Shown: piece by piece, positions 10,543 to 26,434 of the stretch
Layout: every line of letters starts with the position of its first letter
Position numbering within the stretch: the stretch's first letter is position 1
Virus record (IMG/VR): IMGVR_UViG_3300045988_095709
Location: 33,509 to 97,508 of that record
From: a virus
Reading direction: 5' to 3' (one strand)
DNA length: 64,000 bases
Made by a program: the position numbers and the translations under genes
Notes under the pieces: model-generated
The model's database searches: none
What the model was told of the DNA's origin: nothing
What the model saw: only the letters and a program-made list of their open reading frames with translations

Positions 10543-11694
10543 ATGGCAAGAAAAAAAGATAGTCTTTCTGTTTTCGAAGATACATTGAATAAATTAGGAT
10601 ATAGTAATCCTGAAATTAAAGAAAATGTAACAAGTCTAGACGACGTTTTAGACAACGAACAGGAAACAGATATAGATGATATAGATGATAATCCAGTAAA
10701 CAAAACTGAGGAAAATAAAGAAGTAGATCCTGAATTAAAAGAAGACAATACTGAAATACCAGAAGGTGTATTTCAAGGTAAAGATCAGGAAAATAAAGAC
10801 GGCGAAAAAAATGCTACAGAAGAACAGACAGAAGAAGAGGAAATAGAAGACATAACAGAAGAAGAATCTTCTCAGGTCGGAGCATTTTTTGACGCGTTCG
10901 CTGAGTCTTTAGGATGGGATGTTTCAGACGAAGAAAGACCTGATTCTATAGAAGGTCTTATAAGTTACATACAATAGATTGTAGAACAAAATTCAAAACC
11001 AGAATATGCTGACGAACGAATTCAGCATCTTGACGAATACGTCAAAAACGGTGGAAAGTTTGAAGACTTCTATAACAATATGTCTCAATCTATTTCGTAT
11101 GACGACTTAGACGTAGAGAACGAAACTGATCAGAAACTTGCAGTAAGAGACTACTTAAAGCTTCAAGGTTATACTGAAGAACAAATATCTAAAAAGATAC
11201 AAAGATACGAAGACGCTGATGTACTAGAAGACGAGGCTTCTGACGCAATAGAAAGACTGAAAGAAATAAAACAGTTGGAATTAGAAGAGACTCAGAGACA
11301 GCAGCAACAGTATGCAGAAAGACAAAGACAATCTGCAATACAATTCGTATCAGATCTGAATAATAAAATAAGCAATATAACATCTATAAGAGGTGTTTAG
11401 ATTCCAAAGCAGGACAGAAAACTTTTGTTTGATTATATTACAAAAGTAGATGCAAATGGAATGACACAGTATCAAAAAGATTTTAATAAGAATATGATAA
11501 ATAATCTTATAGAATCTGCTTATTTTACTATGAAGGGTGATCAATTAATAAATGAAGCTACAAAGACAGGTCAAACTAACGCAGTTAACAAACTAAGAAA
11601 AACATTAAAACATCAATTTAAAAATCATTCAACTTATAATACACAAGAAGAAAAACAACGTTCATTGATAGATTTAGCGTCAAAATGGATCTAA
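10543..11694 (+). CDS. Scaffolding-like protein (acidic, coiled-coil)
   Basis: It runs from ATG 10543 to TAA 11692-11694 with 2 in-frame TAG. The N-terminal half is very acidic (D/E runs at 10640-10900) and a predicted coiled coil follows (...LKEIKQLELEETQRQQQQYAERQRQ...). It lies immediately upstream of the capsid gene. Confidence 0.55.
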
Positions 11695-11722
11695 TGAACA
11701 TATTTAAAAAATCAATTAAAAT

Positions 11723-13243
11723 ATGAATACACTTTTAAACAATCTTCAACTTTATAGAGGACGTCGTTTCTCTGATCTGGTTGATGAAAACATGATTTCA
11801 AACGCACTATTAACAAAGCCTCATGAGGTTTCAGGTCTTCTTTCTCTTGTATTTGGTACAAAGGATGACGGAGTATCTACAGCTATTGACTTGATTACTG
11901 GAGGTCTTGGTAAAACAATGATTATCGAAAACCGCGAATATGAGTGGTCAGTAATGATCGACAGCGACCATGCGGTTAACATTCGTTATGCTAAGTATAA
12001 CGGAAAGGAGCTTACAGATTCAGATATCGATACAGTAACTCCTGGTATTAATGGTTCTCCTATTTATATAGGTCTCGAGGAGAAGTGGTTTGGACCTGGT
12101 GCAATTCTCTCATTCGACGATTATAATTTTCAGGTTCGTGTTAACGGAAAGCCCTATCAGGATGGAAGCACATGGGTATACGAGTGCTACGTTGCAGACG
12201 GATTTGCAAGCTCATATATTCCTGTTGAGTATCTTCTTCCTGGAAGACAGGTTAGCCGTATTGGTAGCGCATACGAAGAGTATAGCGACGAGGCAGATAT
12301 CATAAACTATCAGACACCGTTTAAGATGCGTAACAATCTTAACACACTCCGTCTGTCTTATGATATTACAGGTGACGCTTATTCTACAGTATTGGCTATC
12401 GCTCTGAAGGATCCTGAGACAGGTAAGACATCTTATCTGTGGGCAGATTACCAGTATTGGTTGGCTCTTCGTCAGTGGAAGAAGCGTGAGGAGACAATGC
12501 TTCTGTTCTCTCACTCTAACAGAAATGCTGACGGTACATACGCACTCAAGGGAACTAACGGACGTGTTGTTCCAATTAGCGCTGGTCTGTTTGAGCAGGT
12601 TTCTCCGGCAAATATTCGTTATTACACAACACTGACTGCAGAATTGCTCGAGGATTATCTGTTCGATCTCACATACAATCTTCTCGGAACACAGGAGCGC
12701 AAGTTTATGGCTCTTACTGGTGAGATGGGTATTCGTGAATTCGATCGCGTACTTCGCGAAAAGGCTGCTGGATTCCAGCTTATTGATACGAAATTTATTA
12801 CTGGCTCAGGTCAGGAATTGACACTCGGTGGTCAGTTTACAACATATAAGATGACAAACGGTATTGAGTTGACAGTTAAGCGTTGTGCTCTGTTCGACAA
12901 TATGGAACTGTTCCGTCAGCTCCATCCGATTTCTGGAAAACCGTTGATGTCATACACATTCTTGTTCGTAGATCTCGGACAGCGTGACGGACAGGCAAAC
13001 ATCGTTAAGGTTTGTCGTAAGGGTCGTGAGTTTGTACAGTGGGTTACTGGTGGTTCTGTAATTCCTAGCGGATATGCAAACAGCATCAATACTCTGCGTT
13101 CTAACTCTAGAGATGGTTATCAGGTTCACTTCCTCGGTGAATTCGGTATAATGCTTCGTAATCCTCTGTCTTGCGGTATTCTCTACTGCGATGCTGAAGA
13201 TACAGATATACGTAACGAGGGTAATGCTAACGTAACAGCGTAA
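11723..13243 (+). CDS. Major capsid protein (506 aa)
   Basis: This is an uninterrupted standard-code ORF with no TAG. It follows the scaffold-like gene and has a typical HK97-class MCP size. Its codon usage differs strongly from its neighbours: it favours AAG, CGT, CTT/CTC and GGT, 16 of its 17 Gln codons are CAG, and one sampled 60-nt line (12541-12600) has 31 G+C. A hairpin follows the stop. Confidence 0.7.
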   Translation: MNTLLNNLQLYRGRRFSDLVDENMISNALLTKPHEVSGLLSLVFGTKDDGVSTAIDLITGGLGKTMIIENREYEWSVMIDSDHAVNIRYAKYNGKELTDSDIDTVTPGINGSPIYIGLEEKWFGPGAILSFDDYNFQVRVNGKPYQDGSTWVYECYVADGFASSYIPVEYLLPGRQVSRIGSAYEEYSDEADIINYQTPFKMRNNLNTLRLSYDITGDAYSTVLAIALKDPETGKTSYLWADYQYWLALRQWKKREETMLLFSHSNRNADGTYALKGTNGRVVPISAGLFEQVSPANIRYYTTLTAELLEDYLFDLTYNLLGTQERKFMALTGEMGIREFDRVLREKAAGFQLIDTKFITGSGQELTLGGQFTTYKMTNGIELTVKRCALFDNMELFRQLHPISGKPLMSYTFLFVDLGQRDGQANIVKVCRKGREFVQWVTGGSVIPSGYANSINTLRSNSRDGYQVHFLGEFGIMLRNPLSCGILYCDAEDTDIRNEGNANVTA

Positions 13244-13269
13244 TATTTGTTTAAATGATAATGTTCGAC

Positions 13270-13286
13270 AGGGGCGTAAAGCCCCT
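13270..13286 (+). terminator. Hairpin after the capsid gene
   Basis: AGGGGC (13270-13275) pairs with GCCCCT (13281-13286) around a GTAAA loop, 27 nt after the MCP stop. There is no clear T-run. Confidence 0.4.
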
Positions 13287-13323
13287 ATGCCGACATTGCA
13301 ACATACTAATTTAAAAATAAATT

Positions 13324-14076
13324 ATGGTAGTTGAATTAAAGATTAAGAAGAAAAATCCCTGGGCTGGTTTGATAAAATATAAATCGTGTTTTGATTATAT
13401 AGCACCTTACTTTACCAGATCCGGGTCGATATATACAGGACTTACTCCTGAAGAAGAAAGAAGATTTGAAAAAGAGTTGGGGTATACAGAAGGAACATTA
13501 TCAAAAGAAAGTGACTTCTGGAAAACCTTTGTAGTAAAAGTTGGTGCCAGAGGTCTTTTGTTAGACGATCAGTATCCTAGATAGGAAATGATTATAAAGT
13601 TCTTAAGTAATCACAAGAGAGTAGCCACATCTTTAAACAAGTTGGATGCTGGAAAAGATTATCTTTTAATCAATAGACAGGCAGAAGCTATAGAGCAGAA
13701 TAGAATTAACAAACTTCGTAGAGATGCTATCAAAGAATTTGATAAGTTGTCTTTGGATCAGATGCGCAAATGTTTGCGTATTCTTGGTATCAAGTCTGAT
13801 AACTTATCTAACGAATTAGTAGAGTCTACTTTATTTAATATGGTAGATAAAAATCCTAAGTCGTTCTTTAACAAGTGGGTTAATAATAAACAGAAAGAAA
13901 CAGAATTCTTGCTCGAAGACGCTATTGCCAAAGGTATTATCAGAAAAGATAGAACTCAGTATTACTACGGATCTGAACTTATTGCTGATAGTCAGCAAGA
14001 TGCAATTTCTTATTTGGATGCTAAGAAAAATCAAGATTTGAAACTTTCGATAATGAATTAGATTTCAAATAAATAA
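13324..14076 (+). CDS. Hypothetical head-module protein (250 codons)
   Basis: It runs in frame 1 from ATG 13324 to TAA 14074-14076. The track ORFs 13324-13584 and 13588-14061 share this frame and are joined by TAG 13582-13584. A second TAG lies at 14059-14061. Confidence 0.7.
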
Positions 14077-14085
14077 TATTAAAAT

Positions 14086-14799
14086 ATGAAGCATAGTGAG
14101 ATTTATACAAAGTTTATGATATTGTACGACAAAGAAGAAACAATGTCGTCGTATCCTCCATTAACTGATTATGAAATCGCTACGCTGTTAAATAAAGCTT
14201 ATTTAGCATTAATTGCTTAGAAACTTACAGGAAACAATCCAAGACAGGTAGGTTTCGAAGCAGATATAAAAGCGATTGAAGATATAAGGCCGTTAATAAT
14301 TACGCAATCACTTACTTCAATCGAATCTTAGTAGGTTACCGCTAGTAATGAAATATAGTATAATACCCCTGACAACCCTAAGATGTTGTATTATATTCAA
14401 TCTAGTCTGTAGACAAACGACAATAAAGAATCTATAGACGATAAAAATCACAATATGATTCCTACGTTTTTGATTTCGCATGACGATTCAGAAAGATTTA
14501 AAAATTCAAATTACAATTTACCTTGGATAAAAAATCCAGTAGTGTATTTAGAAGGAGACGTTTTGCACGTATTATATGATTCTTACAAAATCAAAAACCC
14601 AGGAAATCTTATAATTACTTATATTAAAGAACCTATTAAGTTTGAAAAAGACGAAAATAATAATTCTGATAATCAGGTTTTTGAACTAAACGATAGTATG
14701 GCTGAAGAACTTATAAACTTAGCAATCATACTTTCGGCAGAAATAGTACAATCTCCTAGATTTACTAGTAAACTTCAAAGTAGACCATTAGAATCATGA
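14086..14799 (+). CDS. Hypothetical head-tail connector-region protein (237 codons)
   Basis: It runs in frame 1 from ATG 14086 to TGA 14797-14799 with 5 in-frame TAG. Its stop overlaps the next start (ATGA). Confidence 0.65.
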
Positions 14800-15542
14800 C
14801 AACAGAACAAACCAGATAGTTAGGTATAGAATTTGAAAGGAGATTACAACAAATATCTCCGGATTTTGAAATAACAAACAAATTAGATACCGATACTATA
14901 TATTCGTTTTTAAACGAGTATTAGTATAAATACATAAACGATTTATTTCTGTTGGAAGACCAAATAAATAATGGTTCAAAATCTGTAAACAAAATAAACG
15001 ATACTATTAAAAACTTAATAACACACAAGACAATATCTGTTCCAGATAGAAATCCAGATACAGATAAATATTGTGAAGTTTTTAAATTACCGAATGACTA
15101 TTATTTTTACATAAGATCTACTAGTATAATTGATAAACATTACAAAACTTCTCAAAAATTGGAGCATATGGTGTATGCCCCTAACGTTATGATAAAACAA
15201 TCAGAAGTAGCAAACGTTATCAATTCGTATTGTAATGATGGTGGTATCATAAGAAAACCATTAGTTGTATTAGAAAGTACGTAGAAAGGGTCTCCGTATA
15301 TAAAAGTGATACACGATAGATATACACATTTGGATGCTATCGATCTCGTTTATTGCAGATAGCCTTATAACTTTAACGTACTCAATTATGACGACGAAGA
15401 TAAGTCTGATGGTGCTACACATAGCTACTGTGAATTACCATATTCGTGTTTTAACGAATTGGTAGAAGGTGCTATACAATTATACATACAGTAGTATAAG
15501 TACGCGTTACAAAAATCAAATAAAACTGAATCGAAACAATGA
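14796..15542 (+). CDS. Hypothetical head-tail connector-region protein (248 codons)
   Basis: ATG 14796 overlaps the upstream TGA. The first TAG is at codon 8. The gene ends at TGA 15540-15542, which overlaps the next ATG 15539. Confidence 0.65.
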
Positions 15543-16234
15543 GATATATAGATATACTGGTTAATTACGAAAGAGAAATTAACAAATTAGATAGTACTAT
15601 AGATAAACCGTCTGTTGACGATTCTTTGTTTTGGTTAAATCAAGCAGTAGGAAAATTCATCAAACAACGCTTTAATGGTGATTTTATACATAAAACTTCT
15701 TACGAACAAACAGAAAAAAGAAGAGCAGATTTAATAAAACTATATAAAGAAAAAATATATAATAAACAAGATATAAAGTACGAAAACAAACAGCCTTTAT
15801 ATGATGAATATATTGTAGAATTTCCTGAAGATTTTTTATTTACTCTAAATGAAGACGTGATAATATCTGATAATAAAGGAAATAATACTATAGATACTTG
15901 TGTTTTTGAATGTACGCAAGATAGTTTTATGTATAGAATCAATAATAGTCTTACTGATTTTCATTATAGATTTCATAGAGCAAGACCTCTGAGAATCAGA
16001 AATACAGATGGTTGTAAATTATTAACAGACAAAAATTATAAAATATACTAGTATACGCTAGGATATTTAAAAAAACCAACAGAAATAACTCTTGAAAATC
16101 CTTTTATGGAATATGAGGATTTTGAAGATATAATAATGTCAGAAATAATAAAAATCGCCGCTCAGATGTATATAGAAAATACAAAAGACGAACGATATAA
16201 AACAATTTCTGAAGAAGTTAACACACAAGAATAA
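15539..16234 (+). CDS. Hypothetical head-tail connector-region protein (231 codons)
   Basis: It runs from ATG 15539 to TAA 16232-16234 with one TAG (16049-16051). It is the third gene of an ATGA-coupled trio. Confidence 0.65.
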
Positions 16235-16312
16235 TTTTAACGTGGAAAGCCCAGCTAGTTAGGTCTAGTATTAATATAAGAGGGTGAGTAGAAAAAATTA
16301 ATTTTAAAATAT

Positions 16313-17371
16313 ATGATAACATACGTAAACACAGTGCTTGTTGGAAAAGGAGCAAGCGCAATTGTAAGCACAGATACAGAACTCGTGCACGAAAGTAAAG
16401 ATCTTACCAACGCTGGTAAGTATGTAATAATGGATATCGATAACGGAAAGCTTTTGTCAGCAGATACTGCAAACACAGCAAATAGAATTAAGATCGGTAT
16501 CATTCGTCCTGAAAATACTGCTATTCATCTTTCTGATGGTACAGTTAAGTATCATGACGTAATCAAGTGGTCAAACATAATAAGCAAGGATTCTATCATT
16601 TCTATTAACAGCCTTAAGTATGGTGCTGAGAAGAATACTGAAGAGAAGGTTACTGTAGATTTTTCTAATGTAAACACTCAGGTTATGGCAGACTTCGCTA
16701 AGGGAGGAAAGAGAATCGTTCTTCGTATTACTTATAAGGATCTTCCTACTAGATATCGTAAGTGGACTGAGTCTTATGAGTATATTACAGCTCCTGAGGA
16801 TACTGCAGATACTATTGCAGAGAGTTTTGCTGCTCAGATTAACGGACAGTACAAGAGAGCTAGAGTTACAGCTTCTGCTGCTTCTGGAGTACTTACTCTT
16901 ACAGCAATGCCTTATACAGATGATGATTCTAACGATTCTATCAACTGGGCAGAGACTGTACGTTTCAGTGTAAACTGCTACTTTACAGATCCTACTGCTG
17001 CAGCATTTGCTTCTAAGAACAAGTATGCAATTCTCGGTCTTGAGATCGAAAAGACTCCTGGAAAGAGATATGCTGCTGACGCTAAGCTTGTACGTGATCG
17101 TGAAGCTAATGCTATGGGTTACGAAGGAATCCTTAACAAGGGATGCTGCACTTGGCCTATCATCAAGCCGGCAATGCAGGTAGATATTACTAAGAACTAC
17201 GATGCTATTACATTGGAGTTCGAAAGAATGTATCGTGCTGCAGACGATATTTTCCGTAAGACGAAGGAAAGTATTGAGATCTATGACGTTACTGGATCTT
17301 TGACAGACGTTGCTAAGGCTATTAAGAATTTCTCAGGAATGACTATAGCCGGAGACGATCTTACAGCGTAA
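16313..17371 (+). CDS. Abundant virion protein, candidate auxiliary capsid or decoration protein (352 aa)
   Basis: This ORF is uninterrupted and TAG-free. It has the same G/C-ending, AAG/ATC/CGT-rich codon style as the MCP. Its stop context, ACAGCGTAATATT, is identical to that of the MCP, and its own hairpin plus T-run follows. Confidence 0.55.
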   Translation: MITYVNTVLVGKGASAIVSTDTELVHESKDLTNAGKYVIMDIDNGKLLSADTANTANRIKIGIIRPENTAIHLSDGTVKYHDVIKWSNIISKDSIISINSLKYGAEKNTEEKVTVDFSNVNTQVMADFAKGGKRIVLRITYKDLPTRYRKWTESYEYITAPEDTADTIAESFAAQINGQYKRARVTASAASGVLTLTAMPYTDDDSNDSINWAETVRFSVNCYFTDPTAAAFASKNKYAILGLEIEKTPGKRYAADAKLVRDREANAMGYEGILNKGCCTWPIIKPAMQVDITKNYDAITLEFERMYRAADDIFRKTKESIEIYDVTGSLTDVAKAIKNFSGMTIAGDDLTA

Positions 17372-17401
17372 TATTAATTAATGTTTAATGTAGATGGGGT
17401 T

Positions 17402-17436
17402 GGGGTCTTTTGACCCCTATCCTATTTATTTTTTAA
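17402..17436 (+). terminator. Intrinsic terminator after 16313-17371
   Basis: GGGGTC (17402-17407) pairs with GACCCC (17412-17417) around a TTTT loop. A T-rich tract, CTATTTATTTTTT, follows. Confidence 0.55.
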
Positions 17437-17447
17437 TTACTATTGAT

Positions 17448-18683
17448 ATGAATATAAGAATTGGAAACGATATCAAATTAGAATTTACATTGAGGGGACC
17501 TGAAAATGTGGATTTTCTTAATGTTAAACAAATGCGCTGTTATTTGATAAATACATCTACAGATAATAAAAATTGCGCATGTGATATATTCAAAAGATTT
17601 CCAAGAGAACCATTCCCTCAATTCTATACCCCATCTAAATATACGTTACACGGTTGTGGAAGATTTGAGTATAATGTAAATCCTAGTTATACTAAATGTG
17701 GGTATGCATTATCTAGCGGATTTCACGACCCTCATTATTGGCCTTGTTATAACGGATTTGGCATAAATCCAGGTCACTTTATAGATTGTCATCACGGTCA
17801 TCATAATTATAAATCCCCTACATATCTAGCACACTCTGAACTATTAGAAGGAGAAAATAAAGCATGTGCATATTTTCCTGCGTGTGAATAGATAATGGCT
17901 GGTCCTTATAAATTCGTAGTGGTATTGGTATTATACCAAGACGGATGGGGAAAACATAATCTACATACGTATACTATAGATTACGGTACAGTATTTAATT
18001 TAGTATGTGACGATAGTGGTCAAGACGGAGATATAATTATAAATTTAGACGAAAATATAGAAGACAACAGTATTACCAGAATAGATATTGTAACCGATAC
18101 TTTATATTTAGAAGAAGGTTCTTCTTTGAGTATAGGGCAAAAAGATCTTATGGGAAATACATACGAAATAGATTTATATCTAAACAACGGTAGTAAGATA
18201 AAATATAACCCTTCGGATTCTAAATATATTTTAAATTTTGAATCTGACGACGAAATATTAACTGTTAATTCTAACGGCCAATTATAGGCTGGACAAGTAG
18301 ACGAAGAAAAAGTAGTAATCGTTACTATCACTAGTGACAATGATATTGTTTCTGAATTTACTGTTCATATTTAGAAAAAGCAATCTCAATATATAGGATT
18401 TGCAAATACGACAAATGCTCTTGAATTAGATTTCGAATCTGTAGATTCTGAAAGTAGAAAATTATTTACAGAAGTAGATAATATGGAAGGAGAGCATCAT
18501 GTTGAAAATTTCAATAGCGGTTATTATTTATGGATAATAAGTACTAAAGAAATAGCTAGTATTAGTTCTAGTTCGTTTAGTGTTCCTTTATCAGAACCGT
18601 AGAGATTAGATAATTATTATTGTTATTATTGTTTAAATTAGCTTATAAATACTGATTTTACTATAAATATAACATTAAAATAA
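17448..18683 (+). CDS. Cys/His-rich virion protein with an Ig-like (Big_2-like) middle segment (411 codons)
   Basis: I prefer ATG 17448 because the track start at 17394 lies inside the terminator hairpin. The frame continues through TAG 17889, 18285, 18370, 18600 and 18639 to TAA 18681-18683. The N-terminal ~145 residues contain 10 Cys and many His (…HFIDCHHGHHNYK…). Confidence 0.6.
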
Positions 18684-18689
18684 TAAATT

Positions 18690-20486
18690 ATGGAATTTAA
18701 TGATAATGATGTAAAAGTATTTGGTAAAATTGTATCTATAGCTTCGGAAGGTAAAATTGCAGACACACAATAGATATACGATAGTACATTTGAAAATGGA
18801 GACTTTCAATCTAATATAAATAAAAAATTATTAGATAAAATATAGGAAATAAGTCAAACTGTAACTAAGATTCAGGAAAACATAGAAAAGATATAGGAAG
18901 AAGGAATAAAAACAACAAAGAATTATTTTTATACTTCTATAAACAAAGACGAAACTGCTTCTAGTTCAGAAAGAAATAAAAGATCTGTACCTCGTGCATC
19001 TATGTAGGCGATAGTTAATCACATTGATAGTCTAGAAAGGAAATATCCAAGTTAGTATATTTTTACAGGAGATTATATTGTAAACGAACACGCTACTACA
19101 AATGATGAAAATTATATACATTATGATAAAATGTATATATATCACTTTGACAATATGTATAGAATGTATCTTAGTACTTAGGAAATAACTTTCGACAGAT
19201 TATCAGAAACAGGAAAAGCTAAAGTAAATCTCAAAGGTATATCTTTTGAATGTGATTCTTCAAATATATAGGAAGAAACTACAACTTGGGTAAAAGAGGT
19301 TTATTTAGACGCAATAAGTGTAAACGAACGTATATAGTCAGAAGACGGTGATATGATGTATAAAAATATATATCGAGTACTTACTGACGATGGTACGTAT
19401 AAAAAAATAGAAGATATACTAGGTGTAGATATTATAAATAACGGAGAAGGAAATAAATTTTTATCTGATAATGGACAATATATAGAAATAAATTCAGGTG
19501 AAATAGAACCCTAGATTTTTACACTTACAGTATAGGCAGATCCTTCTGATTCTATTATAAAATTAAACGATATAGAACAAAACACCATAAGTGTCGAAAA
19601 AGGTTCTAAAGTAAAAATAGAAGTTTCTAAAGAAGGATACATTACTTATTATTAGAGTATAACTGTTAACGAAAATAAAGATTTACAAATCAAACTCACA
19701 AAAGAAAGTGAGATAGTGATAGATAAAGAAGAACTGAATATGAATGTATATAAAGTATGGTTAAAATCGTCTAGTGGAGATCTAGATGAATCTGCAAACG
19801 CTATTATTAAAGAATATTTGGACGAAATAAATACAGGAAATATGGCATTATTGTATATCACTCCTGCGTTTCCTCAGTCTGAACCTGGAATAAAAGATTA
19901 TTCTTTAGTTAATTTGTAGTTTTCAAGTACTAGCGGTTTTACCGGATTTGGTTTTTATAAAGATATAGAAACAAGTGATAATGTTGGATATTTTAAATAG
20001 TTTTCTATTAAAATAACAACAAATTCTGAAACATAGAAATATAAAATATCATATTATGGAGAAATTTCAATGGACGCCACAATATTGAACGGATATTCTA
20101 CTGTAAACATACCCAAATAGTATATTTGTGGTATAAATAAAAATGAAGATTCGTATACATTTAGCGGATTCAATAAATCAGAACTTATAGAATATATGGA
20201 TTCTGCTAAAAATCAGGAGGATATAAATATGTACGGACAATCTTACATAACAGTTAGTAGAATATATAACGATGATAGTTGGGAAGTACCTTACGATATA
20301 TATCCAGATATAATAGATAAATCGAAAATAGGTAGTACTGGTACGGTATTGCACGGAGTATCTAAAAATGCAGATACAAACGGTCACAGATTGGAATTGG
20401 AAATAAGCGGATCTACAGATGGAGGAGATGGATATACTATAACAAAATGTCAATATGTAGATCAGAACGGTCAACCGTTAAGTTAA
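18690..20486 (+). CDS. Fibre-like or receptor-binding protein (598 codons)
   Basis: I checked frame 0 line by line from ATG 18690 to TAA 20484-20486 and only TAG interrupts it. The N-terminus MEFNDNDVKVFGKIVSIASEGK... is paralogous to that of 20530-20751. Confidence 0.65.
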
Positions 20487-20529
20487 TAATATGATATATT
20501 ATTACCAATACTTATAAATAATAATTATT

Positions 20530-20751
20530 ATGGAAATCAAAGAAAACGACGTAAAAGTATTTGGTAGAGTCGTATCTATAGCTATCGACAATAAAGTTGC
20601 TAGTTCCGAACAAGTTTATGACGACACATTTGAAGATGGAATGTTTCAGTCGGAAATAAATAAGAAATTAGTATAGAAAATAGACGAAATATCTATTTCT
20701 GGAGGTGTCGAATCTATTAGTAACGACGAAATAGATCAAATTTGTATATAA
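20530..20751 (+). CDS. Short paralogue of the 18690 N-terminal module (73 codons)
   Basis: The sequence MEIKENDVKVFGRVVSIAIDNKVASSEQVYDDTFEDGMFQSEINKKL aligns with the start of 18690-20486. It ends ...SNDEIDQICI, resembling the C-terminus ...SNGDIDAICVD of 20754-21833. Confidence 0.55.
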
Positions 20752-20801
20752 TTATGAATTTTTTAGATAAAACAGGTCTCCAATATTTTTGGGGAAAAAT
20801 A
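20750..20801 (+). repeat. Conserved fibre-gene junction, copy 1
   Basis: AATTATGAATTTTTTAGATAA (20750-20770) and TATTTTTGGGGAAAAATA (20784-20801) are identical to 21843-21863 and 21877-21894. Confidence 0.8.
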
Positions 20802-21833
20802 AAGACATAGATAAATAATAGTTTCGCAGCAAACGATGCGATGACTTTTAAGGGTACAATTGGTACTGGAGGTACAGTAACAGCACTTCCTGCTACACAT
20901 AAAGTTGGAGATACATACAAAGTATCTACGGCAGGAACATATGCTGGAGCTAAGTGTGAAATAGGAGACATGATAATCTGTGTAAAAGATGGATCTTCTG
21001 ATACAGCTTCTGATTGGACAATCGTTCAGTCTAACATTGACGGAGCTGTCACAGGTCCTACTAGTTCTACAGATGCTCATGTTGCAGTATTTAATGGAGC
21101 CACAGGAAAGATAATAAAAGACAGTGGTTTTACTATAGCAAAATCTGTACCATCTAATGCAGTATTTACTGATACTACATATTCTGTAGCTACTACATCT
21201 AAAGACGGATTAATGTCTGCAGAAGACAAGAAAAAATTAGAAGGAATAACCGGTAGTGGAGATTATGTACTTCCGGCAGCTACTTCTACTACACTCGGTG
21301 GAGTTAAGATAGGAAGTAATATTAGTAACTCTTCTGGTACGATCAGTATTACTAAACAGAATGTTACAGACGCGTTAGGATATACTCCATTGCAGACAGC
21401 TAGTGATACTAAAGTTACTTAGAATACTCCTGTTTCTACTTCTGGTGATTTTAATATGTTAATGGCAAAAACTGCAGGAAACGTAGCTAATGAAACAAGC
21501 GATGTAAACAAAGCAAGAGCTTTCACATATAACCCAGGAACACAGTGTGTAAAAGTATCTAGATCAGACGAAGGATAGAATACTGATACTGTAATTCTAT
21601 CTAGTTAGAACGATTACGAATTGAAATTATCTCCTGCTGGAATAATAATGAATACTGGAGATACTCCTAGATTGACTATCGATTCAGACGGAGGTACGTT
21701 CGATAGTGAATTTACAATAACTGCTGTAAAATTTGTTAAGTCTGGAGGAACATCTTCTCAGCTTTTGGTTGCAGACGGATCTGTTGCAACTGCGATATCT
21801 AACGGAGACATAGACGCTATTTGCGTAGATTAA
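20754..21833 (+). CDS. Tail fibre protein (359 codons)
   Basis: It runs from ATG 20754 to TAA 21831-21833 with 4 TAG. The N-terminus is MNFLDKTGLQYFWGKI. It carries the fibre motifs KDGLMSAEDKKKLEGI and DYVLPAATSTTLGGVKIG (21261-21314), plus ...GGTSSQLLVADGS... Confidence 0.8.
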
Positions 21834-21842
21834 AAATATTAC

Positions 21843-21894
21843 AATTATGAATTTTTTAGATAAGACCGGACTTTAGTATTTTTGGGGAAAAATA
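21843..21894 (+). repeat. Conserved fibre-gene junction, copy 2
   Basis: It contains the same 21-mer and 18-mer as copy 1, spanning the start codon and first 16 codons of the next fibre gene. Confidence 0.8.
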
Positions 21895-22959
21895 CAAACA
21901 TATGTTTTAAATCAACTAGAAGCCATTCCTTTAGCTGGAAAATTTAATAACGGATTAATGTACGCTGGAGATAAATAGTTGATAGATAAATATAAATCCA
22001 TGTGGTAGGATATGTACGGATCTGGTGAAGACGGAAATATGCCATTAAAAAGTATAAACATATCATAGAGTGGTGGAAAATTAGTAATATAGAGCGGGTC
22101 GTAGGATTATTCTACAAGTACAAGTAATATAAAAGAAACAAAAAACATACCGACAGCGACAACATCCGCAGACGGAGCTATGAGTTCTTCTGATAAATAG
22201 ACACTTGATAATTTAAATTCTAAATTATAGGATATAGATTTTAGTAAATATTTTAAAGAAGGAAATATATATACTACTGATGACGAAAGTGTATCTTTAG
22301 ATTTATAGTATCTTAGAGATGTAAAAATATGGTCTTATTCTGGAGGAGAGCAAAAAGCAGCTATATTGGGACATTTTCATTCTGATGTTCCCGGAAGTAA
22401 ATTTTCCGTAATATATTAGGACGATACAGCAAATTCCGGACATCCTTTGGTGATAGAAACAATTCCTTATTTTGGAATATTGCTAGGAATGTCTGAAGGA
22501 ACTAGTGTTGGTTATTATACAGCAACAAGAGGAACATATTCTACATACATAGGAAGAGGTAATGTTTCGGTATGCGATTCTTAGAGTTCTACAGGAATAT
22601 TAACAGGAAAAAGAGTACAACTCACTTCAAAAGGATATCGTCCTGTTGATAAATAGGGATCTGTAACAATAGACGACACGTGGGCTAAAAATAATATGAA
22701 CAATATAGCTACTTGTGATGCCACTATGGTTGACGCAAAAGTCATAGATATAGATTACGATCATAAAATAGCTACAGTTAGAATAACGATACAAGATACA
22801 GAGGGGTAGTTTTTTTACGTTAAGACTGGAGGAATCGTAATAGGAGGAACAGCATCTTCAGCGGTAAACGGAGAATATTATGCTAACGTTGTATTATAGG
22901 TTCCGTACGATAGTAGTGGAAAAGTTTCGTTATACGATAAATACGCAATAACTTGGTAA
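21847..22959 (+). CDS. Tail fibre protein, paralogous N-terminus (370 codons)
   Basis: I read frame 1 line by line from ATG 21847 to TAA 22957-22959. It has 14 in-frame TAG, so no standard-code ORF of 60 aa or more appears here in the track. The N-terminus is MNFLDKTGL(TAG)YFWGKI, and it has two (A/S)xDK-x-(L/T)(I/L)D motifs. Confidence 0.75.
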
Positions 22960-22960
22960 T

Positions 22961-25582
22961 ATGAAAAAATATAATACAAATTTATTTGGTTAGAAATTAA
23001 ATGTTTCTTAGGCTATTGACTCTAACGCAGAAGGAAAAGGTACTATTACTAGAAACATAGGAGAAAATGCTAATGGAACATTTAATGTTTCTAATACCGG
23101 ATCAGAAGATTCTAAAAAGACAATACATTCTATAGGAATTGGAACCAAAGATTCAGATAGAAGTAACGCATTAGAAATAATGCAGAATGGAGATGTATAT
23201 CTATACGGAGTCGGTGGATACGAAGGGGATAATGCTTCAGATTCTAAATCAGTACAATCTGTAATACAGGATTCACAATCTGGTGGAGATTATACTTTAC
23301 CGATAGCTTCTGCTGACACTCTTGGTGGAATTAAGGTTGGAGAAGGTCTTAATATAGACGGAGAAGGCGTTCTTAGTTCTACTAGTAGTGGAAGTGGTAG
23401 CGGTGTAGGTAAGGTTGATCCTAAATCAGATGGTACTGGAGAAATCTTTAACGATTATACAAACAACTCCGCTTCTGGAAAGTATTCTCATTCTGAGGGA
23501 TATGGAAATGTTGCAGAAGGAAATTATTCTCATGTTGAAGGAGTTGGTGCTGTCAAACTTACAATAAATCCGGAAAGCATAATGACAATGTGTGTTGTGA
23601 TGCAAACTCCGTAGATCAGCGAAGATAAGAAAACTGCTACAGGACAAATGATGAGATTCGACGGAAAACCTATAAACATAGAATCCGGAACTAAAATATA
23701 TACTGTAGAAATAGCTGAAGGCTTTTCTTTTTTGCAAACATTGACTGTAGTAGAATGCAATAATACTGATACTCTTGTAGTAGATACTCCTTTTGACGAT
23801 TCCGTTATAAATTCGAATTCAGGAGAAGGAATAGCTTTTATTACACAAGAAGTATATGATTTGTTGAATCCGGAAGATATAATTTTACCATTAAGATCGA
23901 AAGGAGAATGTTCTCATTCTGAAGGATATGGAAACGTAGCTTTCGGAAACTATTCACATGCAGAAGGACATGGTTATTCTTGTTCAGACATTGTACAAAT
24001 AACACAAATAAGTGAAGACGGTAAGAAGATTTATGGTGACTTTTCTAAATTAGGAGATTCGTCCATAACAGATAGTTCTTTAGTTAGAGATGTATCTTCT
24101 CCTGCGATAATAAAAGCAAATAATGGAAACCATATAAGAACTGTAAAGATACCAGGAGACGTTGGTGGTTACTAGGGATATATGGAATTAAACGAATCTA
24201 TAGGAACGATTGAAGAAGTAGGTTAGGAAATAGTCGTAATTATAGGTTTAAATTATTCTAAGGGATTAGGTTCTCATACCGAAGGTCGTATTACAGAGGC
24301 TTCTGGAGATTATTCTCATGCAGAAGGAATTTTTTCAACAGCTTCAGGAAAATCTTCTCATGCAGAAGGATCATTTAATGTTTCTTCAGGAGCGGATTCG
24401 CATTCTGAGGGAAAAGAAACAAAAGCTATTGGAATTGCTTCTCATGCAGAAGGATCAAATTGTGTATCAGAAGGATTATATTCTCATGCCGAAGGTGAAA
24501 TGGCAAACGCAAAAGGATCTAAATCTCACGCAGAAGGTACTAATACACAAGCAATAGGTGAATCTTCTCATGCTGAAGGAAACAGTACTATAGCGAACGG
24601 AAACGCTTCTCATGCTGAAGGATATCATACAAATACAAATAACGAATACGAGCATGCTTGTGGAAAATATAATTATTCCGATTCGTCTTCAGATTATGAT
24701 TCCTATAAGACTATATATTCTGTAGGAATAGGAACATCTGATAACGATAGAAAGAATGCGTTTGAAATTTCAAAAACAGGAAATGTATACGTAAAAGGTA
24801 TTGGTGGATATATCGGAAAAGAAAAAGAAGGAAAATAGACTCTATAGGATACAATAACAGATATAAAAAATAACGGATATTCTGTTACAAGCTTAAATGT
24901 AACAAACGAAAAAGAATATAATGTTTTATTATTAGAACCTTCTTCTGATAAAATAAACGGTACATCTTCGTTTAAATGTGTAGATCTATGTTTCAATCCA
25001 AATACGATAAATGATTGGAGGCACGGATTATTTCTGAAAGAAAGATCTACTGGTTATTATTCTAAAATAGGAAAAGATTCTGTAGAGATATACGGAAAAA
25101 TAGAAGACCAACCACACGTAATAAGTATTCGTAGAAGTAATACTGACATAGAACATAGTTCTAGCGAGTTAGGAAACACTGACGTTTTAATACAAAATGA
25201 AGGTTTAAAAATAGGTAAATACGTAACAGGAAGCGGATATGAACCGTCTTCAGACAATAGTAATTCTATTTTAAAGAAGAGTAGATTAGATATACAAAAC
25301 CTAACGACAGGTGGTTCTTCTAACACTTCAACTTACATTAGTTCTCAATTGTATGCAGACGATAATGGAAATGTCGATAAATCCGCAAAAATAGAAATAC
25401 AGGGAGAAACATCTAATATAGATCTTCACGGAACTACTGATTCTTATATAAAAATAAATAATAAATATGTTATTACAGGTGCAGAAGATGAAAAACGTAT
25501 AAAAATCTGGACCGGAACTCAAGATCAATACGATCAGATCGAAGTTAAGGACGAAAACACATTATATTTTATAACAGTATAA
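22961..25582 (+). CDS. Tail fibre or spike with YadA-head-like (Hep_Hag-type) repeats (873 codons)
   Basis: It runs from ATG 22961 to TAA 25580-25582. The track ORFs 23180, 23648, 24500 and 25349 all share this frame and are joined by TAG. It has 13 xSH(A/S/T/V)EG motifs, the fibre motif DYTLPIASADTLGGIKVG (23288-23341), and a duplicated module SIGIGTKDSDRSNALEIMQNGDVYLYGVGGYEG / SVGIGTSDNDRKNAFEISKTGNVYVKGIGGYIG. Confidence 0.8.
24269..24646 (+). repeat. Nine exact-period tandem coding repeats of 42 nt (14 aa)
   Basis: The x-S-H-x-E-G units start at 24269, 24311, 24353, 24395, 24437, 24479, 24521, 24563 and 24605. A 14-residue period is characteristic of YadA-like head beta-roll repeats. 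Confidence 0.85.
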
Positions 25583-25585
25583 TCT

Positions 25586-26434
25586 ATGAAAAATTTAAAA
25601 GTTAGTATAATAATGTCTGCATATAATTCTGAAAATACAATAGACACTGCAATACAATCTGTATTAGAACAAACTTATGATAATTATGAATTAATAATTG
25701 TAAACGATTGTTCTATAGATGGTACATTAGATAGAATAAAGAAATATAAATCTGATAAAATAATACTAATAAATCATGAATTTAATATGGGATGCGGATG
25801 TTCTAGAAAAACAGGAATAGAAAATTCAACAGGAGATTATATTTGTTTTTTAGACAGTGATGATTATTATGATGACAGATATGTGGAAACATTAATAAAC
25901 TATGCAATACAATATAATGCTGACAGTATACAATCTGGTAGAATAATAATAAAATATGGAGAACTTATAGAAAAAATTCCTGAATTTTATGATATATCTG
26001 GATCAGACAAATTGATAATAGAACCGTCTGAAAACTATAAGTTTTTAAATTCAGCCATGTTTAAAAAAGAATTATTCGACAAAGTTGAATATTCTGAAAA
26101 CAGATATAACGAAGACGGTCCGACGATTACCAAATTAAATATGATATGTAATCGTAGAATATTTATTCCGTATGCTGGATATTATTATAATAACGATAAT
26201 GCAAACAGTCTTACTAAAAATTCAGATAATATTAAAAATATAATATATCATTCTTTAGGAGTGTTTGATGTTATAGATTTTGCGAATAATAATAATATAA
26301 AATACGATTGGAATCAACTTATAATACATACGTTGAACAATTTAAAAAATATAGAATATACACAAGACGTAATTTAGAAATATAAAAATGAATTATTACG
26401 TTTGTATTTATATATTATAAAATTAAATATATAA
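25586..26434 (+). CDS. Family-2 (GT-A fold) glycosyltransferase
   Basis: The N-terminus VSIIMSAYNSENTIDTAIQSVLEQTYDNYELIIVNDCSIDGT and the DxD motif FLDSDDYY are classic GT2 signatures. There is no internal TAG. The standard-code ORF ends at TAG 26375-26377. If that TAG is decoded, 19 more codons follow to TAA 26432-26434. The gene is very AT-rich (12 G+C in its first 60 nt). Confidence 0.85.

What the first reader, a model, noticed from the sequence alone, without database searches (positions are those of the whole stretch)
18690..22959. Modular fibre cluster with duplicated gene junctions that could mediate cassette swapping
There are two pairs of paralogous N-terminal modules: ME(F/I)..NDVKVFG..VSIA at 18690 and 20530, and MNFLDKTGLQYFWGKI at 20754 and 21847. 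The junction preceding each MNFLDK gene is repeated at both protein and DNA level. The upstream gene ends ...SN(D/G)(E/D)ID(Q/A)IC(I/V) in both cases. Identical 21-nt and 18-nt stretches span the start codon (20750-20770 matches 21843-21863, and 20784-20801 matches 21877-21894). The 73-codon gene 20530-20751 looks like an N-module fused directly to that C-terminal junction motif, as if the intervening body had been deleted by recombination between junctions. Such conserved joints flanking divergent receptor-binding bodies are what host-range cassette exchange would leave behind.
Basis: seen in the sequence. Interest (0 to 1): 0.65.

Follow-up and report, generated by a model that had tools for sequence, protein, structure and literature searches.

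The report
Plug-and-socket fibre genes in a crAss-like phage
A gut crAss-like phage builds its fibres from separate proteins that carry conserved "plug" and "socket" ends, apparently so that each protein docks onto the one encoded before it, and close relatives have repeatedly reshuffled the pieces at or near these ends; this is a new example of a known way in which phages vary their fibres.

Summary
Both N-terminal paralog pairs, the shared C-terminal motif and the exact 21-nt and 18-nt repeats are at the stated coordinates. The genes only read through if TAG is translated as Gln, which holds for the whole window.

The phage is an uncultured Suoliviridae-like crassvirus. The cluster lies between the auxiliary capsid gene and the lysis genes.

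- For it: ten genomes with a ~98% identical backbone carry a strongly mosaic cluster. g598 is present or absent between the two N2 repeats, with different crossover points. A 190-nt patch covering junction 2 has a different ancestry from both flanking bodies. L002 and L003 share the joint between unrelated bodies.
- Against it: the within-genome junction identity is protein-level constraint (16 codons, pN=0, pS≈0.75). Breakpoints also fall inside bodies.
- g73 is not a deletion remnant. It is a conserved adaptor, 73–75 aa in 46 homologs, and the same architecture recurs in 9 of 11 distant mini-protein clusters.

Best explanation (inferred): N2 anchors a protein to the virion, and the C-terminal motif of one protein docks the N-terminal N1 peptide of the next-encoded protein. 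A C-motif gene is followed by an N1 gene far more often than chance (p≈1e-21), and one natural in-frame fusion deletes exactly the joint. Whether these are head or tail fibres is unresolved.

The parts
17388..18683 (+). g431: conserved structural protein that always precedes the cluster. The likely start is the MNIRIGNDIK methionine at 17448. It is a string of Ig/cadherin-like beta-sandwich domains with a Cys/His-rich insert.
   Evidence: Homologs occur in 69 of 80 family-level loci. AF2 mean pLDDT is 78.7 and mostly above 85 for aa 140-429. Foldseek matches protocadherins, S-layer proteins and phage BIG2/tail-fibre proteins, with no crAss001 tail-hub chain among the listed matches. A family profile does not hit crAss001 gp38.
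18690..20486 (+). g598: accessory fibre protein made of the N2 anchor (aa 1-~54) plus a large body that includes a gp29-like Ig domain (aa 278-327). Present only in the window lineage and L095.
   Evidence: Pfam PF25641, 2.5e-9. Absent from 8 of the 10 panel genomes. 95% identical to the L095 copy.
18690..18851 (+). N2 module, copy 1. It lies within the backbone block that aligns at about 98% to the 5' end of the relatives' single g73.
   Evidence: blastn block 11001-18851 at 97.6-98.7%. The upstream 60 nt match the relatives' g73 upstream at 53-60/60.
20530..20751 (+). g73: conserved adaptor mini-protein = N2 anchor (20530-20691) + short linker + C-motif SISNDEIDQICI (20713-20748).
   Evidence: 46 homologs, all 73-75 aa. 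Alignment A1 has 37 invariant columns. Full-length homologs occur in L002/L003/L004. 9 of 11 distant mini-N2 clusters end in a C-motif.
20713..20804 (+). Junction 1: C-motif of g73, TAA stop, 2-nt spacer, N1 module of g359 (17 codons).
20754..21833 (+). g359 (gene 2): N1 plug, shaft with a phi29 gp8.5 / crAss001 gp21-like segment (aa 146-201), a C-terminal third that exists as two alleles (about 21400-21770), and the C-motif AISNGDIDAICVD (21792-21830).
   Evidence: Pfam PF11133, 4e-11. PDB 7qof gp21 and 3qc7. Two allele classes, 92-99% vs 19-56% identity.
21809..21999 (+). Recombinant patch covering junction 2: the end of the g359 C-motif, the 13-nt spacer, N1, and the first ~51 codons of g370. 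It is L094-type inside L085-type flanks.
   Evidence: 41 consecutive L094-type informative sites (runs of 10, 5, 4 and 22), flanked by 122 L085-type sites on the left and more than 130 on the right.
21847..22959 (+). g370 (gene 3): N1 plug identical to that of g359 over 16 aa, a variable body, a conserved C-terminus (EYYANVVLQVPYDSSGKVSLYDKYAITW), and no C-motif. It would be the terminal segment.
   Evidence: Homologs of 264-501 aa occur in the panel.
22961..25582 (+). g873 (gene 4): a third anchor type (N3, ~85 aa, 22961-23215), a repetitive body (42-nt G..SHAEG repeats, 24263-24622), and a Phage_tail_C tip (about 25505-25582). The body is present, absent or resized among relatives.
   Evidence: Pfam PF24243, 4e-10. 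Repeats D1/D2. Gene 4 is 132, 133, 343, 873 or 1002 aa, or absent.
25586..26434 (+). Family-2 glycosyltransferase. An accessory gene found only in the two genomes with the longest gene 4 (873 and 1002 aa).
   Evidence: Pfam PF00535, 2e-34. Present only in the window/L082 and L091.

Best explanation
The region is the hypervariable fibre module of an uncultured Suoliviridae-like crassvirus that reads TAG as Gln. Its proteins are built from interchangeable parts with standardised ends. N2 (about 50 aa) and N3 (about 85 aa) are N-terminal anchors that attach a protein to the virion. N1 (MNFLDKTGLQYFWGKIK, 16-17 aa) is an N-terminal plug. The C-motif (I-[ST]-x-x-[ED]-I-[DQ]-x-[IL]-[CF], at the extreme C-terminus) is the matching socket. 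Proposed assembly, inferred and not shown: g73 is a minimal adaptor (N2 + C-motif) that converts an N2 site into an N1 docking site. g359 plugs into g73 and offers a second socket. g370 plugs in and terminates the chain. g598 and g873 are independent fibres on their own anchors. Because g359 and g370 have identical N1 plugs, either could occupy either socket, so mixed or branched fibres are possible. Because the ends are standardised, recombinants whose breakpoints fall at or near module edges remain functional. Related genomes therefore show gain and loss of bodies between repeated modules (g598 between the two N2 copies), conversion tracts between N2 copies, exchange of bodies behind a shared joint (L002/L003), and exchange of the joint itself (window 21809-21999). 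Shown: the modules, their conservation, the gene-order rule and the mosaicism. Inferred: physical C-motif/N1 docking, the assembly order, and a receptor-binding role.
For: Context: MCP (PDB 7qof gp32, 2e-36), portal, AUX (gp36-like), R1 and muzzle, Ring 3/4, Ring 1, Ring 2 and MUZ Pfam hits in relatives, and nearest named relatives in Suoliviridae. Recoding. Protein-level constraint on the joints: N1 pN=0 with pS=0.75; C-motif pS=0.70. Gene-order rule: across 82 sources, a C-motif gene is followed by an N1 gene in 13 of 18 regex calls against 5 of 938 for other gene pairs, Fisher p=9e-22. Most exceptions are regex misses or N1-like variants. Further instances appear in L001, L005 and L006 and L098, giving about six lineages. 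Adaptor: g73 length is invariant in 46 homologs, and 9 of 11 independent 65-92 aa N2 proteins end in a C-motif. N2 is always at residue 1 of proteins of 48-1169 aa, in 95 clusters out of 1.84 billion representatives. Natural fusion: the L021 391-aa protein equals L018 N2-protein aa 1-~135 plus the next N1-protein from aa ~24, deleting exactly the upstream C-terminal domain, the stop and N1, so a covalent link can replace the joint. Mosaicism. Precedent: crAss001 gp22 docks by residues 1-26 and carries additional fibre proteins (PMC10172136). The K1-5 adapter gp37 and the conserved N-terminal peptides of Klebsiella phage RBPs are a further precedent (PMC6872550).
Against: There is no direct evidence of a C-motif/N1 contact. 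No multimer prediction was possible, and the g73 monomer model is poor (pLDDT 52.8). Some N1 genes are not preceded by a C-motif gene (L001 12217, L005 13926). The L097 adaptor is followed directly by lysis genes, with no N1 gene within 12 kb. The adjacency statistic is inflated by shared ancestry, since only about six lineages contribute. The identical N1 plugs on g359 and g370 give no way to specify order. The virion attachment site of N2 is unknown: g431 is not detectably a tail hub, and domain hits are split between head-fibre and tail-fibre families.
Confidence: 0.6

Rival explanations
1. One reading: the duplicated junctions are primarily DNA-level recombination substrates. Homologous crossovers at the conserved joints swap whole receptor-binding bodies, and that is why the joints are conserved.
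For: The g598 presence/absence polymorphism is bounded by the two N2 direct repeats, with different switch points in different genomes. A conversion tract occurs in the L095 g598 N2 copy. L002/L003 identity ends 17 codons into N1, and a 96%-identical 128-nt junction island sits between unrelated bodies.
Against: The two N1 copies in the window are saturated at synonymous sites (pS 0.75, pN 0), and the C-motif DNA is poorly conserved, so the joints are maintained by selection on the protein. Breakpoints also lie inside bodies (about 21400 and about 22264). In the window the joint itself is the exchanged unit. The 9 contigs that carry an identical AUX protein have mostly the same neighbouring proteins.
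Confidence: 0.25
2. Structural anchor only. N1 is a common anchor by which each fibre binds independently to the same virion site. The C-motif is an unrelated C-terminal element, for example a trimerisation or folding cap. The adjacency only reflects tandem duplication history.
For: N1 genes exist without a preceding C-motif gene. g359 and g370 share an identical N1. The L097 adaptor has no adjacent N1 gene. Conserved N-terminal anchors are the rule in phage fibres (PMC6872550).
Against: This model leaves the 65-92 aa N2 + C-motif proteins without a function, although they are conserved and recur in 9 of 11 distant clusters. It does not explain why C-motif genes are almost always followed by N1 genes in about six lineages. 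It also does not explain why the L021 fusion removes both elements together.
Confidence: 0.12
3. Translational fusion. The junctions are recoding sites (frameshift or stop read-through) that yield g73-g359-g370 fusion proteins, so the conserved junction is an RNA signal.
For: The spacers are very short (-4 to +20 nt), and 13 of the 17 junctions tabulated have the downstream ATG in the +2 frame.
Against: Spacer lengths and frames vary, and all three offsets occur. In the g359 frame a stop lies 11 codons upstream of its ATG, so a shift would destroy the conserved C-motif. The conservation follows an amino-acid pattern, with synonymous changes tolerated. The -4 (ATGA) and 2-nt spacers are ordinary translational coupling.
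Confidence: 0.03

Closest known systems
Adapter-plus-conserved-peptide RBP systems of K1-5/K1E/SP6 (adapter gp37 carrying two tailspikes) and the anchor-branch systems of G7C and the Klebsiella KP32, KP34, Menlow and PhiK64-1 groups (Latka et al. 2019, PMC6872550)
   Same: A small or primary protein with a conserved N-terminal anchor carries further fibres or spikes, which dock through a short conserved N-terminal peptide (7-29 aa there, 16-17 aa here). The genes are adjacent. The bodies are highly divergent and horizontally exchanged. The architecture is plug-and-play.
   Different: No T4gp10-like branching domain was detected (Pfam only). The inferred socket is a ~12-residue motif at the extreme C-terminus. 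The arrangement is serial, because a plug-bearing protein can carry its own socket, rather than branched from one hub. The phage is a crassvirus with no sequence relationship to those proteins, and the interaction is untested.
PhiCrAss001 fibre apparatus (Bayfield et al. 2023, PMC10172136): tail fibre gp22 docks in the THA2-THB hub by residues 1-26 and carries additional fibre proteins; head fibres gp21 (trimer) and gp29 (dimer) bind hexon pockets
   Same: The virus order is the same. Fibres are multi-protein, with attachment through short N-terminal segments. g359 shares the gp21/phi29 gp8.5-type segment, and g598 shares the gp29 Ig-like domain.
   Different: The similarity is confined to distal domains. 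The N-terminal attachment parts (N1, N2, N3) match none of gp21, gp22 or gp29. Gene order also differs: here the fibre and lysis module lies between AUX/g431 and Ring 2. No THA or THB homolog was identified.
Mosaic tail-fibre loci of tailed phages in general (T-even gp37/gp38, lambdoid stf, P2/Mu-type fibres)
   Same: Backbones are conserved, with abrupt identity breakpoints inside the fibre genes. N-termini are conserved and distal parts vary. Bodies are gained and lost by recombination between repeated segments.
   Different: Here several genes keep both termini constant while the middle varies (gene 3 and gene 4). A dedicated C-terminal motif is coupled to the next gene's N-terminus. No invertase, shufflon or DGR was seen in the cluster.
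T4 long tail fibre (gp34-gp35-gp36-gp37)
   Same: A fibre assembled end to end from products of consecutive genes, with gene order matching assembly order.
   Different: The T4 joints are unique, non-interchangeable interfaces. Here the same plug and socket sequences are reused at successive joints.

Membership tests
Adapter / anchor-branch RBP systems (K1-5 gp37 type; Klebsiella phage anchor + conserved peptide) | A primary protein or adapter with an N-terminal anchor domain conserved among related phages | tested here: met
   N2 always starts at residue 1, in 95 representative clusters with protein lengths of 48-1169 aa. In the loci examined, the N2 gene is the first gene after the g431 homolog.
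Adapter / anchor-branch RBP systems (K1-5 gp37 type; Klebsiella phage anchor + conserved peptide) | Secondary fibres carry a short conserved N-terminal peptide | tested here: met
   N1 is identical over 16 aa in g359 and g370 with pN=0. It is conserved at the start of gene 2 and gene 3 in all 10 panel genomes and in the L001-L006, L018, L021 and L098 lineages.
Adapter / anchor-branch RBP systems (K1-5 gp37 type; Klebsiella phage anchor + conserved peptide) | A T4gp10-like branching domain serves as the docking site | tested here: inconclusive
   Pfam gave no such hit on g73, g359 or g598 at E<0.1. No HHpred-grade or structural test was possible, because the g73 model is unreliable. g73 has only about 20 residues after N2, which is too short for such a domain.
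Adapter / anchor-branch RBP systems (K1-5 gp37 type; Klebsiella phage anchor + conserved peptide) | Physical interaction between the adapter and the peptide-bearing fibre | not testable with these tools
   Only indirect evidence is available: gene adjacency, the natural fusion and co-transfer of the C-motif with N1.
crAss001-type head fibres (gp21 HFT, gp29 HFD) | An N-terminal capsid-pocket-binding segment homologous to gp21 residues 1-38 or gp29 residues 1-58 | tested here: not met
   The BLASTP and phmmer matches cover only gp21 residues 24-68 and gp29 residues 54-108, and they map to internal parts of g359 (aa 152-195) and g598 (aa 274-328). The N-termini do not match.
crAss001-type tail fibre docking (gp22 in the THA/THB hub) | Presence of THA/THB hub homologs and a gp22-like N-terminus | tested here: not met
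   The g431 profile does not hit gp38. The g431 fold is an Ig-like string with no crAss001 hub chain among the Foldseek matches listed. No window protein matches the N-terminus of gp22 or any part of gp38 or gp39.
Mosaic (horizontally exchanged) phage fibre cassettes | Close relatives with a conserved backbone show abrupt changes of identity and of nearest neighbour within the fibre genes | tested here: met
   The backbone is 97.6-98.7% identical, against 19-100% by segment within the cluster, and the nearest neighbour switches L095 -> L085 -> L094 -> L085. See also L002 vs L003.
Site-specific host-range switches (Gin/Cin invertible segments, shufflons, DGRs) | Inverted repeats flanking alternative C-terminal segments, plus an invertase or reverse transcriptase | tested here: not met
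   All the significant repeats are direct. The inverted repeats in 17000-26000 are at most 28 nt long and only 73-94% complementary, consistent with chance. All genes are on one strand. No recombinase or RT domain was found in the cluster or its neighbours. The rest of the window was not scanned for these.

The most novel reading that the evidence does not exclude
The ~12-residue C-terminal motif and the 16-17-residue N1 peptide form a self-contained, portable, non-covalent connector that is reused at successive joints. Gene order then encodes assembly order, and fibres of variable length or composition can be daisy-chained from standard parts, starting from a dedicated 73-aa adaptor. No such reusable end-to-end connector code has been described structurally for any phage fibre. 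If real, it would let the fibre architecture of uncultured crassviruses be read directly from sequence, and it could be used for engineering.
Probability: 0.35. Interest if true: 0.7.

Novelty: new variant of a known kind. Interest (0 to 1): 0.5.

Why it matters
Crassviruses are the most abundant phages of the human gut. Most are uncultured, and their fibre apparatus is the least resolved part of the only structural atlas (PhiCrAss001). A sequence-readable rule for which fibre protein attaches to which would allow fibre architecture to be predicted from metagenomes. It would also mark the segments that are free to vary, which are the candidate host- or mucus-binding parts. The panel of near-identical genomes with different cassette content is a ready-made natural experiment for linking fibre composition to host strain. 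The standardised ends could also serve as handles for engineering.

Tried and rejected
(1) g431 = tail hub THA and g73 = THB, proposed from synteny with crAss001 (AUX-THA-THB-R2). Rejected. There is no profile hit. The g431 AF2 model is an Ig-like domain string with no hub match. Some relatives (L014) have no N2 gene at all.
(2) g73 as a recent deletion product. Rejected.
(3) Translational fusion or frameshift across the junctions. Rejected.
(4) In-frame natural C-motif+N1 fusions inside long proteins. None were found in the 80 loci. The one fusion found (L021) deletes the joint and does not retain it.
(5) AF2 of the g73 monomer. pLDDT was 52.8, so it was not used for fold search.
(6) IMG/VR relatives anchored on AUX were only family-level, at most 59% aa identity. 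Genus-level relatives had to be reached through g73 homologs and exact-protein contig look-ups.
(7) A back-translated N1 pattern scan of IMG/VR found only three contigs: the L002 and L003 contigs and one other.
(8) tblastn of g73 against annotated phage genomes gave no match. No cultured phage with this system was identified.
(9) My first regex motif scan was too strict and missed most cases. I replaced it with homology searches and a looser regex.
The 98%-identical P0048 was used in its place.


Full report
WHAT THE WINDOW IS. The window has 32% G+C. Under the standard code it is broken into short ORFs. If TAG is read as sense, stop-to-stop ORFs of at least 100 aa cover about 100% of every 4-kb bin, against about 50% otherwise. 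Nearly all genes are on the + strand. Inside the finding itself, TAG aligns with CAA (Gln) at paralogous positions: 21874-21876 vs 20781-20783, and codon 28 of g598 vs codon 28 of g73. I therefore take TAG to encode Gln. No tRNA gene lies in the window.

The phage is a crassvirus. The 506-aa protein at 11723-13243 matches the PhiCrAss001 major capsid protein (PDB 7qof, 2e-36). Portal, AUX (gp36-like), Ring 1 (gp43-like) and muzzle (gp44-like) are found by BLASTP. 15539-16234 is a CrAss_Ring_3_4 protein. Relatives carry precomputed Ring 1, Ring 2 and MUZ Pfam hits. The nearest named genomes are Suoliviridae, subfamily Oafivirinae (cr272_1 and others).

The gene order is portal, MCP, rings, AUX (16313-17371), g431, then the cluster under study, then a GT2 glycosyltransferase, lysis genes, Ring 2, Ring 1 and the muzzle.

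THE OBSERVATION. It is correct in every detail; coordinates and statistics are given in the observation check. The cluster genes are:

- g598, 18690-20486
- g73, 20530-20751
- g359, 20754-21833
- g370, 21847-22959
- g873, 22961-25582

I call the ME..NDVKVFG..VSIA module N2. I call MNFLDKTGLQYFWGKI N1. I call the ...ISN.[ED]ID.IC. ending the C-motif.

WHY THE JUNCTION COPIES ARE ALIKE. In the 16 identical N1 codons there are no amino-acid changes, but 6 synonymous nucleotide differences fall on about 8 synonymous sites (pS about 0.75). For the 12 C-motif codons pS is 0.70 and pN is 0.31. For 52 N2 codons pS is 0.35 and pN is 0.28. The exact 21-mer and 18-mer lie on Met, Asn, Phe, Asp, Tyr, Trp and Lys codons, which have little or no degeneracy in an AT-rich genome. 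The in-genome identity is therefore old and maintained by selection on the peptide. It is not recent gene conversion.

g73 IS A CONSERVED GENE. A database search returned 46 homologs at 81-100% identity, all 73-75 aa, many on 90-97 kb contigs, with 37 invariant columns in the alignment. Family-level relatives have full-length homologs of 66-74 aa directly after the g431 homolog in L002, L003 and L004, and one of 85 aa in L005.

An exhaustive profile search of 1.84 billion representatives found N2 in 95 clusters. It always starts at residue 1, on proteins of 48-1169 aa. Of eleven independent mini-proteins of 65-92 aa, nine end in a C-motif, for example ...SEIDNLF...TDIDQIFV...DEIDLIVGQ and ...EQIKALFV. 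So "N2 + linker + C-motif" is a recurrent protein architecture, which I read as an adaptor. It is not a deletion scar.

THE GENE-ORDER RULE. I compared adjacent gene pairs across the window, the 80 AUX-anchored loci and L082. A gene ending in a C-motif is followed by an N1-type gene in 13 of 18 regex calls, against 5 of 938 for other pairs (Fisher p=9e-22). Two of the five "C but not N1" cases are N1-like variants in L004, and three are false positives of the loose regex. Three of the five "N1 but not C" cases are C-motifs that the regex missed. More instances appear in L001, L005 and L006 and L098. Only about six lineages contribute, so the p-value overstates independence.

One exception stands. 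The L097 adaptor is followed directly by lysis genes. Also, some N1 genes have no C-motif gene upstream.

Spacers run from -4 to +20 nt with all three frame offsets. A stop precedes the g359 ATG in its own frame, so translational fusion is excluded.

A NATURAL FUSION. The L021 391-aa protein equals residues 1-~135 of the L018 N2 protein joined to residue ~24 onward of the next N1 protein. The 423-nt deletion removes the upstream C-terminal domain with its C-like ending, the stop codon and the N1 module. A covalent bond can thus replace the joint, as expected if the joint is a non-covalent link between consecutive gene products.

MOSAICISM IN CLOSE RELATIVES. Nine contigs encode an AUX protein identical to the window's. 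One was shown and is 100% identical to the window over 16 kb. The other eight were collapsed as having mostly the same neighbouring proteins.

Through the g73 homologs I retrieved nine further genomes. For the four compared by blastn over the flanking genes, backbone identity to the window is 97.6-98.7%. Their clusters differ as follows:

| Element | Variation across the 10-genome panel |
|---|---|
| g598 | present only in the window lineage and L095 |
| g73 | always present, 73-75 aa |
| gene 2 (g359-like) | 330-359 aa |
| gene 3 (g370-like) | 264-501 aa |
| gene 4 (g873-like) | absent, or 132, 133, 343, 873 or 1002 aa, between a constant ~85-aa N-terminus and a Phage_tail_C tip |
| glycosyltransferase | only in the window and L091 |

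Sliding-window identity shows that the window's nearest neighbour changes by segment:

- The 5' part of g73 is closest to L095.
- Junction 1 and the 5' part of gene 2 are closest to L085, L093, L083 and L087.
- The gene-2 C-terminal third exists as two alleles (92-99% vs 19-56% identity).
- Junction 2 plus the first ~50 codons of gene 3 are closest to L094 (92-96%, against 69-86% for L085 and L091).
- The gene-3 body is again closest to L085 and L091 (97-99%).

Informative sites place the junction-2 patch at 21809-21999. It has 41 consecutive L094-type sites between runs of 122 and more than 130 L085-type sites. So the C-motif, spacer, N1 and about 51 codons moved as one unit.

THE g598 POLYMORPHISM. 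In genomes without g598, the 60 nt upstream of g73 match the window's g598 upstream region (53-60 of 60 in the four checked), not the window's g73 upstream region (22-23 of 60). The backbone alignment runs into their g73 up to codon ~54.

A site-by-site comparison shows that the single N2 copy is g598-type at its 5' end and g73-type thereafter. The switch falls near nt 20-40 in seven genomes. L085 has a second g598-type block at about nt 55-113. The L095 g598 N2 copy carries a g73-type tract. The 1.84-kb g598 body is therefore gained or lost by recombination between the two N2 repeats, and the repeats also exchange conversion tracts. The polarity of the event (insertion or deletion) is unresolved.

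At family level, L002 and L003 are about 95% identical up to 17 codons into their first N1 gene. They then diverge, but share a 96%-identical 128-nt island (C-motif, stop, N1) between unrelated bodies. One body is found behind N1 in L002 and behind an N2-like head in L003.

WHAT THE PROTEINS ARE. g598 has a gp29-like Ig domain (PF25641). g359 has the phi29 gp8.5 / crAss001 gp21-type segment (PF11133). g873 has a Phage_tail_C tip. These matches cover distal or internal domains only. None of the N-terminal modules resembles gp21, gp22 or gp29.

g431, which always precedes the cluster, folds as a string of Ig/cadherin-like beta-sandwich domains with a disordered Cys/His-rich insert. It matches adhesins and phage BIG2 or tail-fibre proteins, and no crAss001 hub protein. 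Whether these fibres sit on the head or the tail remains open. No annotated phage genome has a g73 homolog.

MECHANISM AND VERDICT. The best-supported reading is a plug-and-socket fibre kit. N2 and N3 anchor proteins to the virion. The C-motif of one protein docks the N1 peptide of the next-encoded protein. g73 is the minimal adaptor, and g73-g359-g370 form a chain. Standardised ends make recombinants viable, which produces the observed mosaic.

The modules, their conservation, the gene-order rule and the recombination events are shown. The docking itself is inferred. Exchange is real and often bounded by the modules. However, the joints are conserved for protein function, they can themselves be exchanged, and g73 is ancestral, not derived.

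The closest known systems are the K1-5/SP6 adapter gp37 with conserved N-terminal docking peptides, and the Klebsiella phage anchor-branch systems (PMC6872550). The multi-protein fibres of PhiCrAss001 are also close (PMC10172136). This case differs in using a C-terminal motif as the presumed socket, in reusing the same pair serially, and in lacking a detectable T4gp10-like domain. I rate it a new variant of a known kind, of moderate interest.

Noticed in passing
whole window (examples: 18771-18773, 21874-21876): TAG is reassigned to a sense codon, aligning with CAA (Gln) in paralogs, throughout the 64 kb. No tRNA gene (suppressor or otherwise) lies in the window. 69 of the 80 family-level loci show the same recoding signature.
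   Followed up: partly
window 11723-13243 and 16313-17371, compared with 21847-22959 and 40642-56760: TAG codon use is very uneven. The major capsid protein and the auxiliary capsid protein have none. g370 has 14 in 370 codons, and the 5372-aa giant ORF has 104.
   Followed up: no
window 22961-25582 (repeats at 23477-23548, 23903-23974 and 24263-24622): g873 contains 42-nt (14-aa) tandem repeats of the form G..SHAEG. In genomes with a ~98% identical backbone the same gene is 132, 133, 343, 873 or 1002 aa, or absent, always between the same ~85-aa N-terminus and Phage_tail_C tip. This includes 132-133-aa mini-genes in L085 and L093.
   Followed up: partly
window 25586-26434: A family-2 glycosyltransferase sits inside the virion/fibre module. 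In the panel it is present only in the two genomes with the longest gene 4 (the window and L091).
   Followed up: no
L021 12080-13255 vs L018 12083-13682: A natural in-frame fusion of an N2 protein (aa 1-~135) to the body of the following N1 protein (from aa ~24). A 423-nt deletion removes exactly the C-terminal domain, the stop and the N1 plug.
   Followed up: yes
L097 6001-6225: A 74-aa N2 + C-motif adaptor is followed directly by DUF5675, holin and Ring 2 genes, with no N1-type gene in the 12-kb locus. This is an exception to the C-motif -> N1 adjacency rule.
   Followed up: partly
window 17388-18683: g431 has a ~80-residue Cys/His-rich insert (CAC, HGCG, KCGY, WPCY, DCHHGHH, ACAYFPAC) that AF2 leaves disordered, set inside an otherwise confident Ig-like domain string. 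This suggests a possible disulfide or metal-binding site. The longest ORF starts at 17388, but homologs start at the MNIRIGNDIK methionine (17448).
   Followed up: partly
L095 8161-8330: The N2 module of the g598 copy in L095 carries a tract of g73-type nucleotides (about nt 21-90). This indicates gene conversion between the two N2 paralogs within a genome.
   Followed up: partly
window 40642-56760: A single 5372-aa ORF lies in the position occupied in PhiCrAss001 by the genes annotated as putative RNA-polymerase subunits. It was not examined.
   Followed up: no
L003 17012-18220 and L002/L003 downstream of the fibre genes: Between two 95%-identical genomes the region after the fibre genes also differs in content: 194 aa + 768 aa in L002 against 402 aa + 268 aa in L003. 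The variable zone therefore extends beyond the N1/C-motif genes.
   Followed up: no
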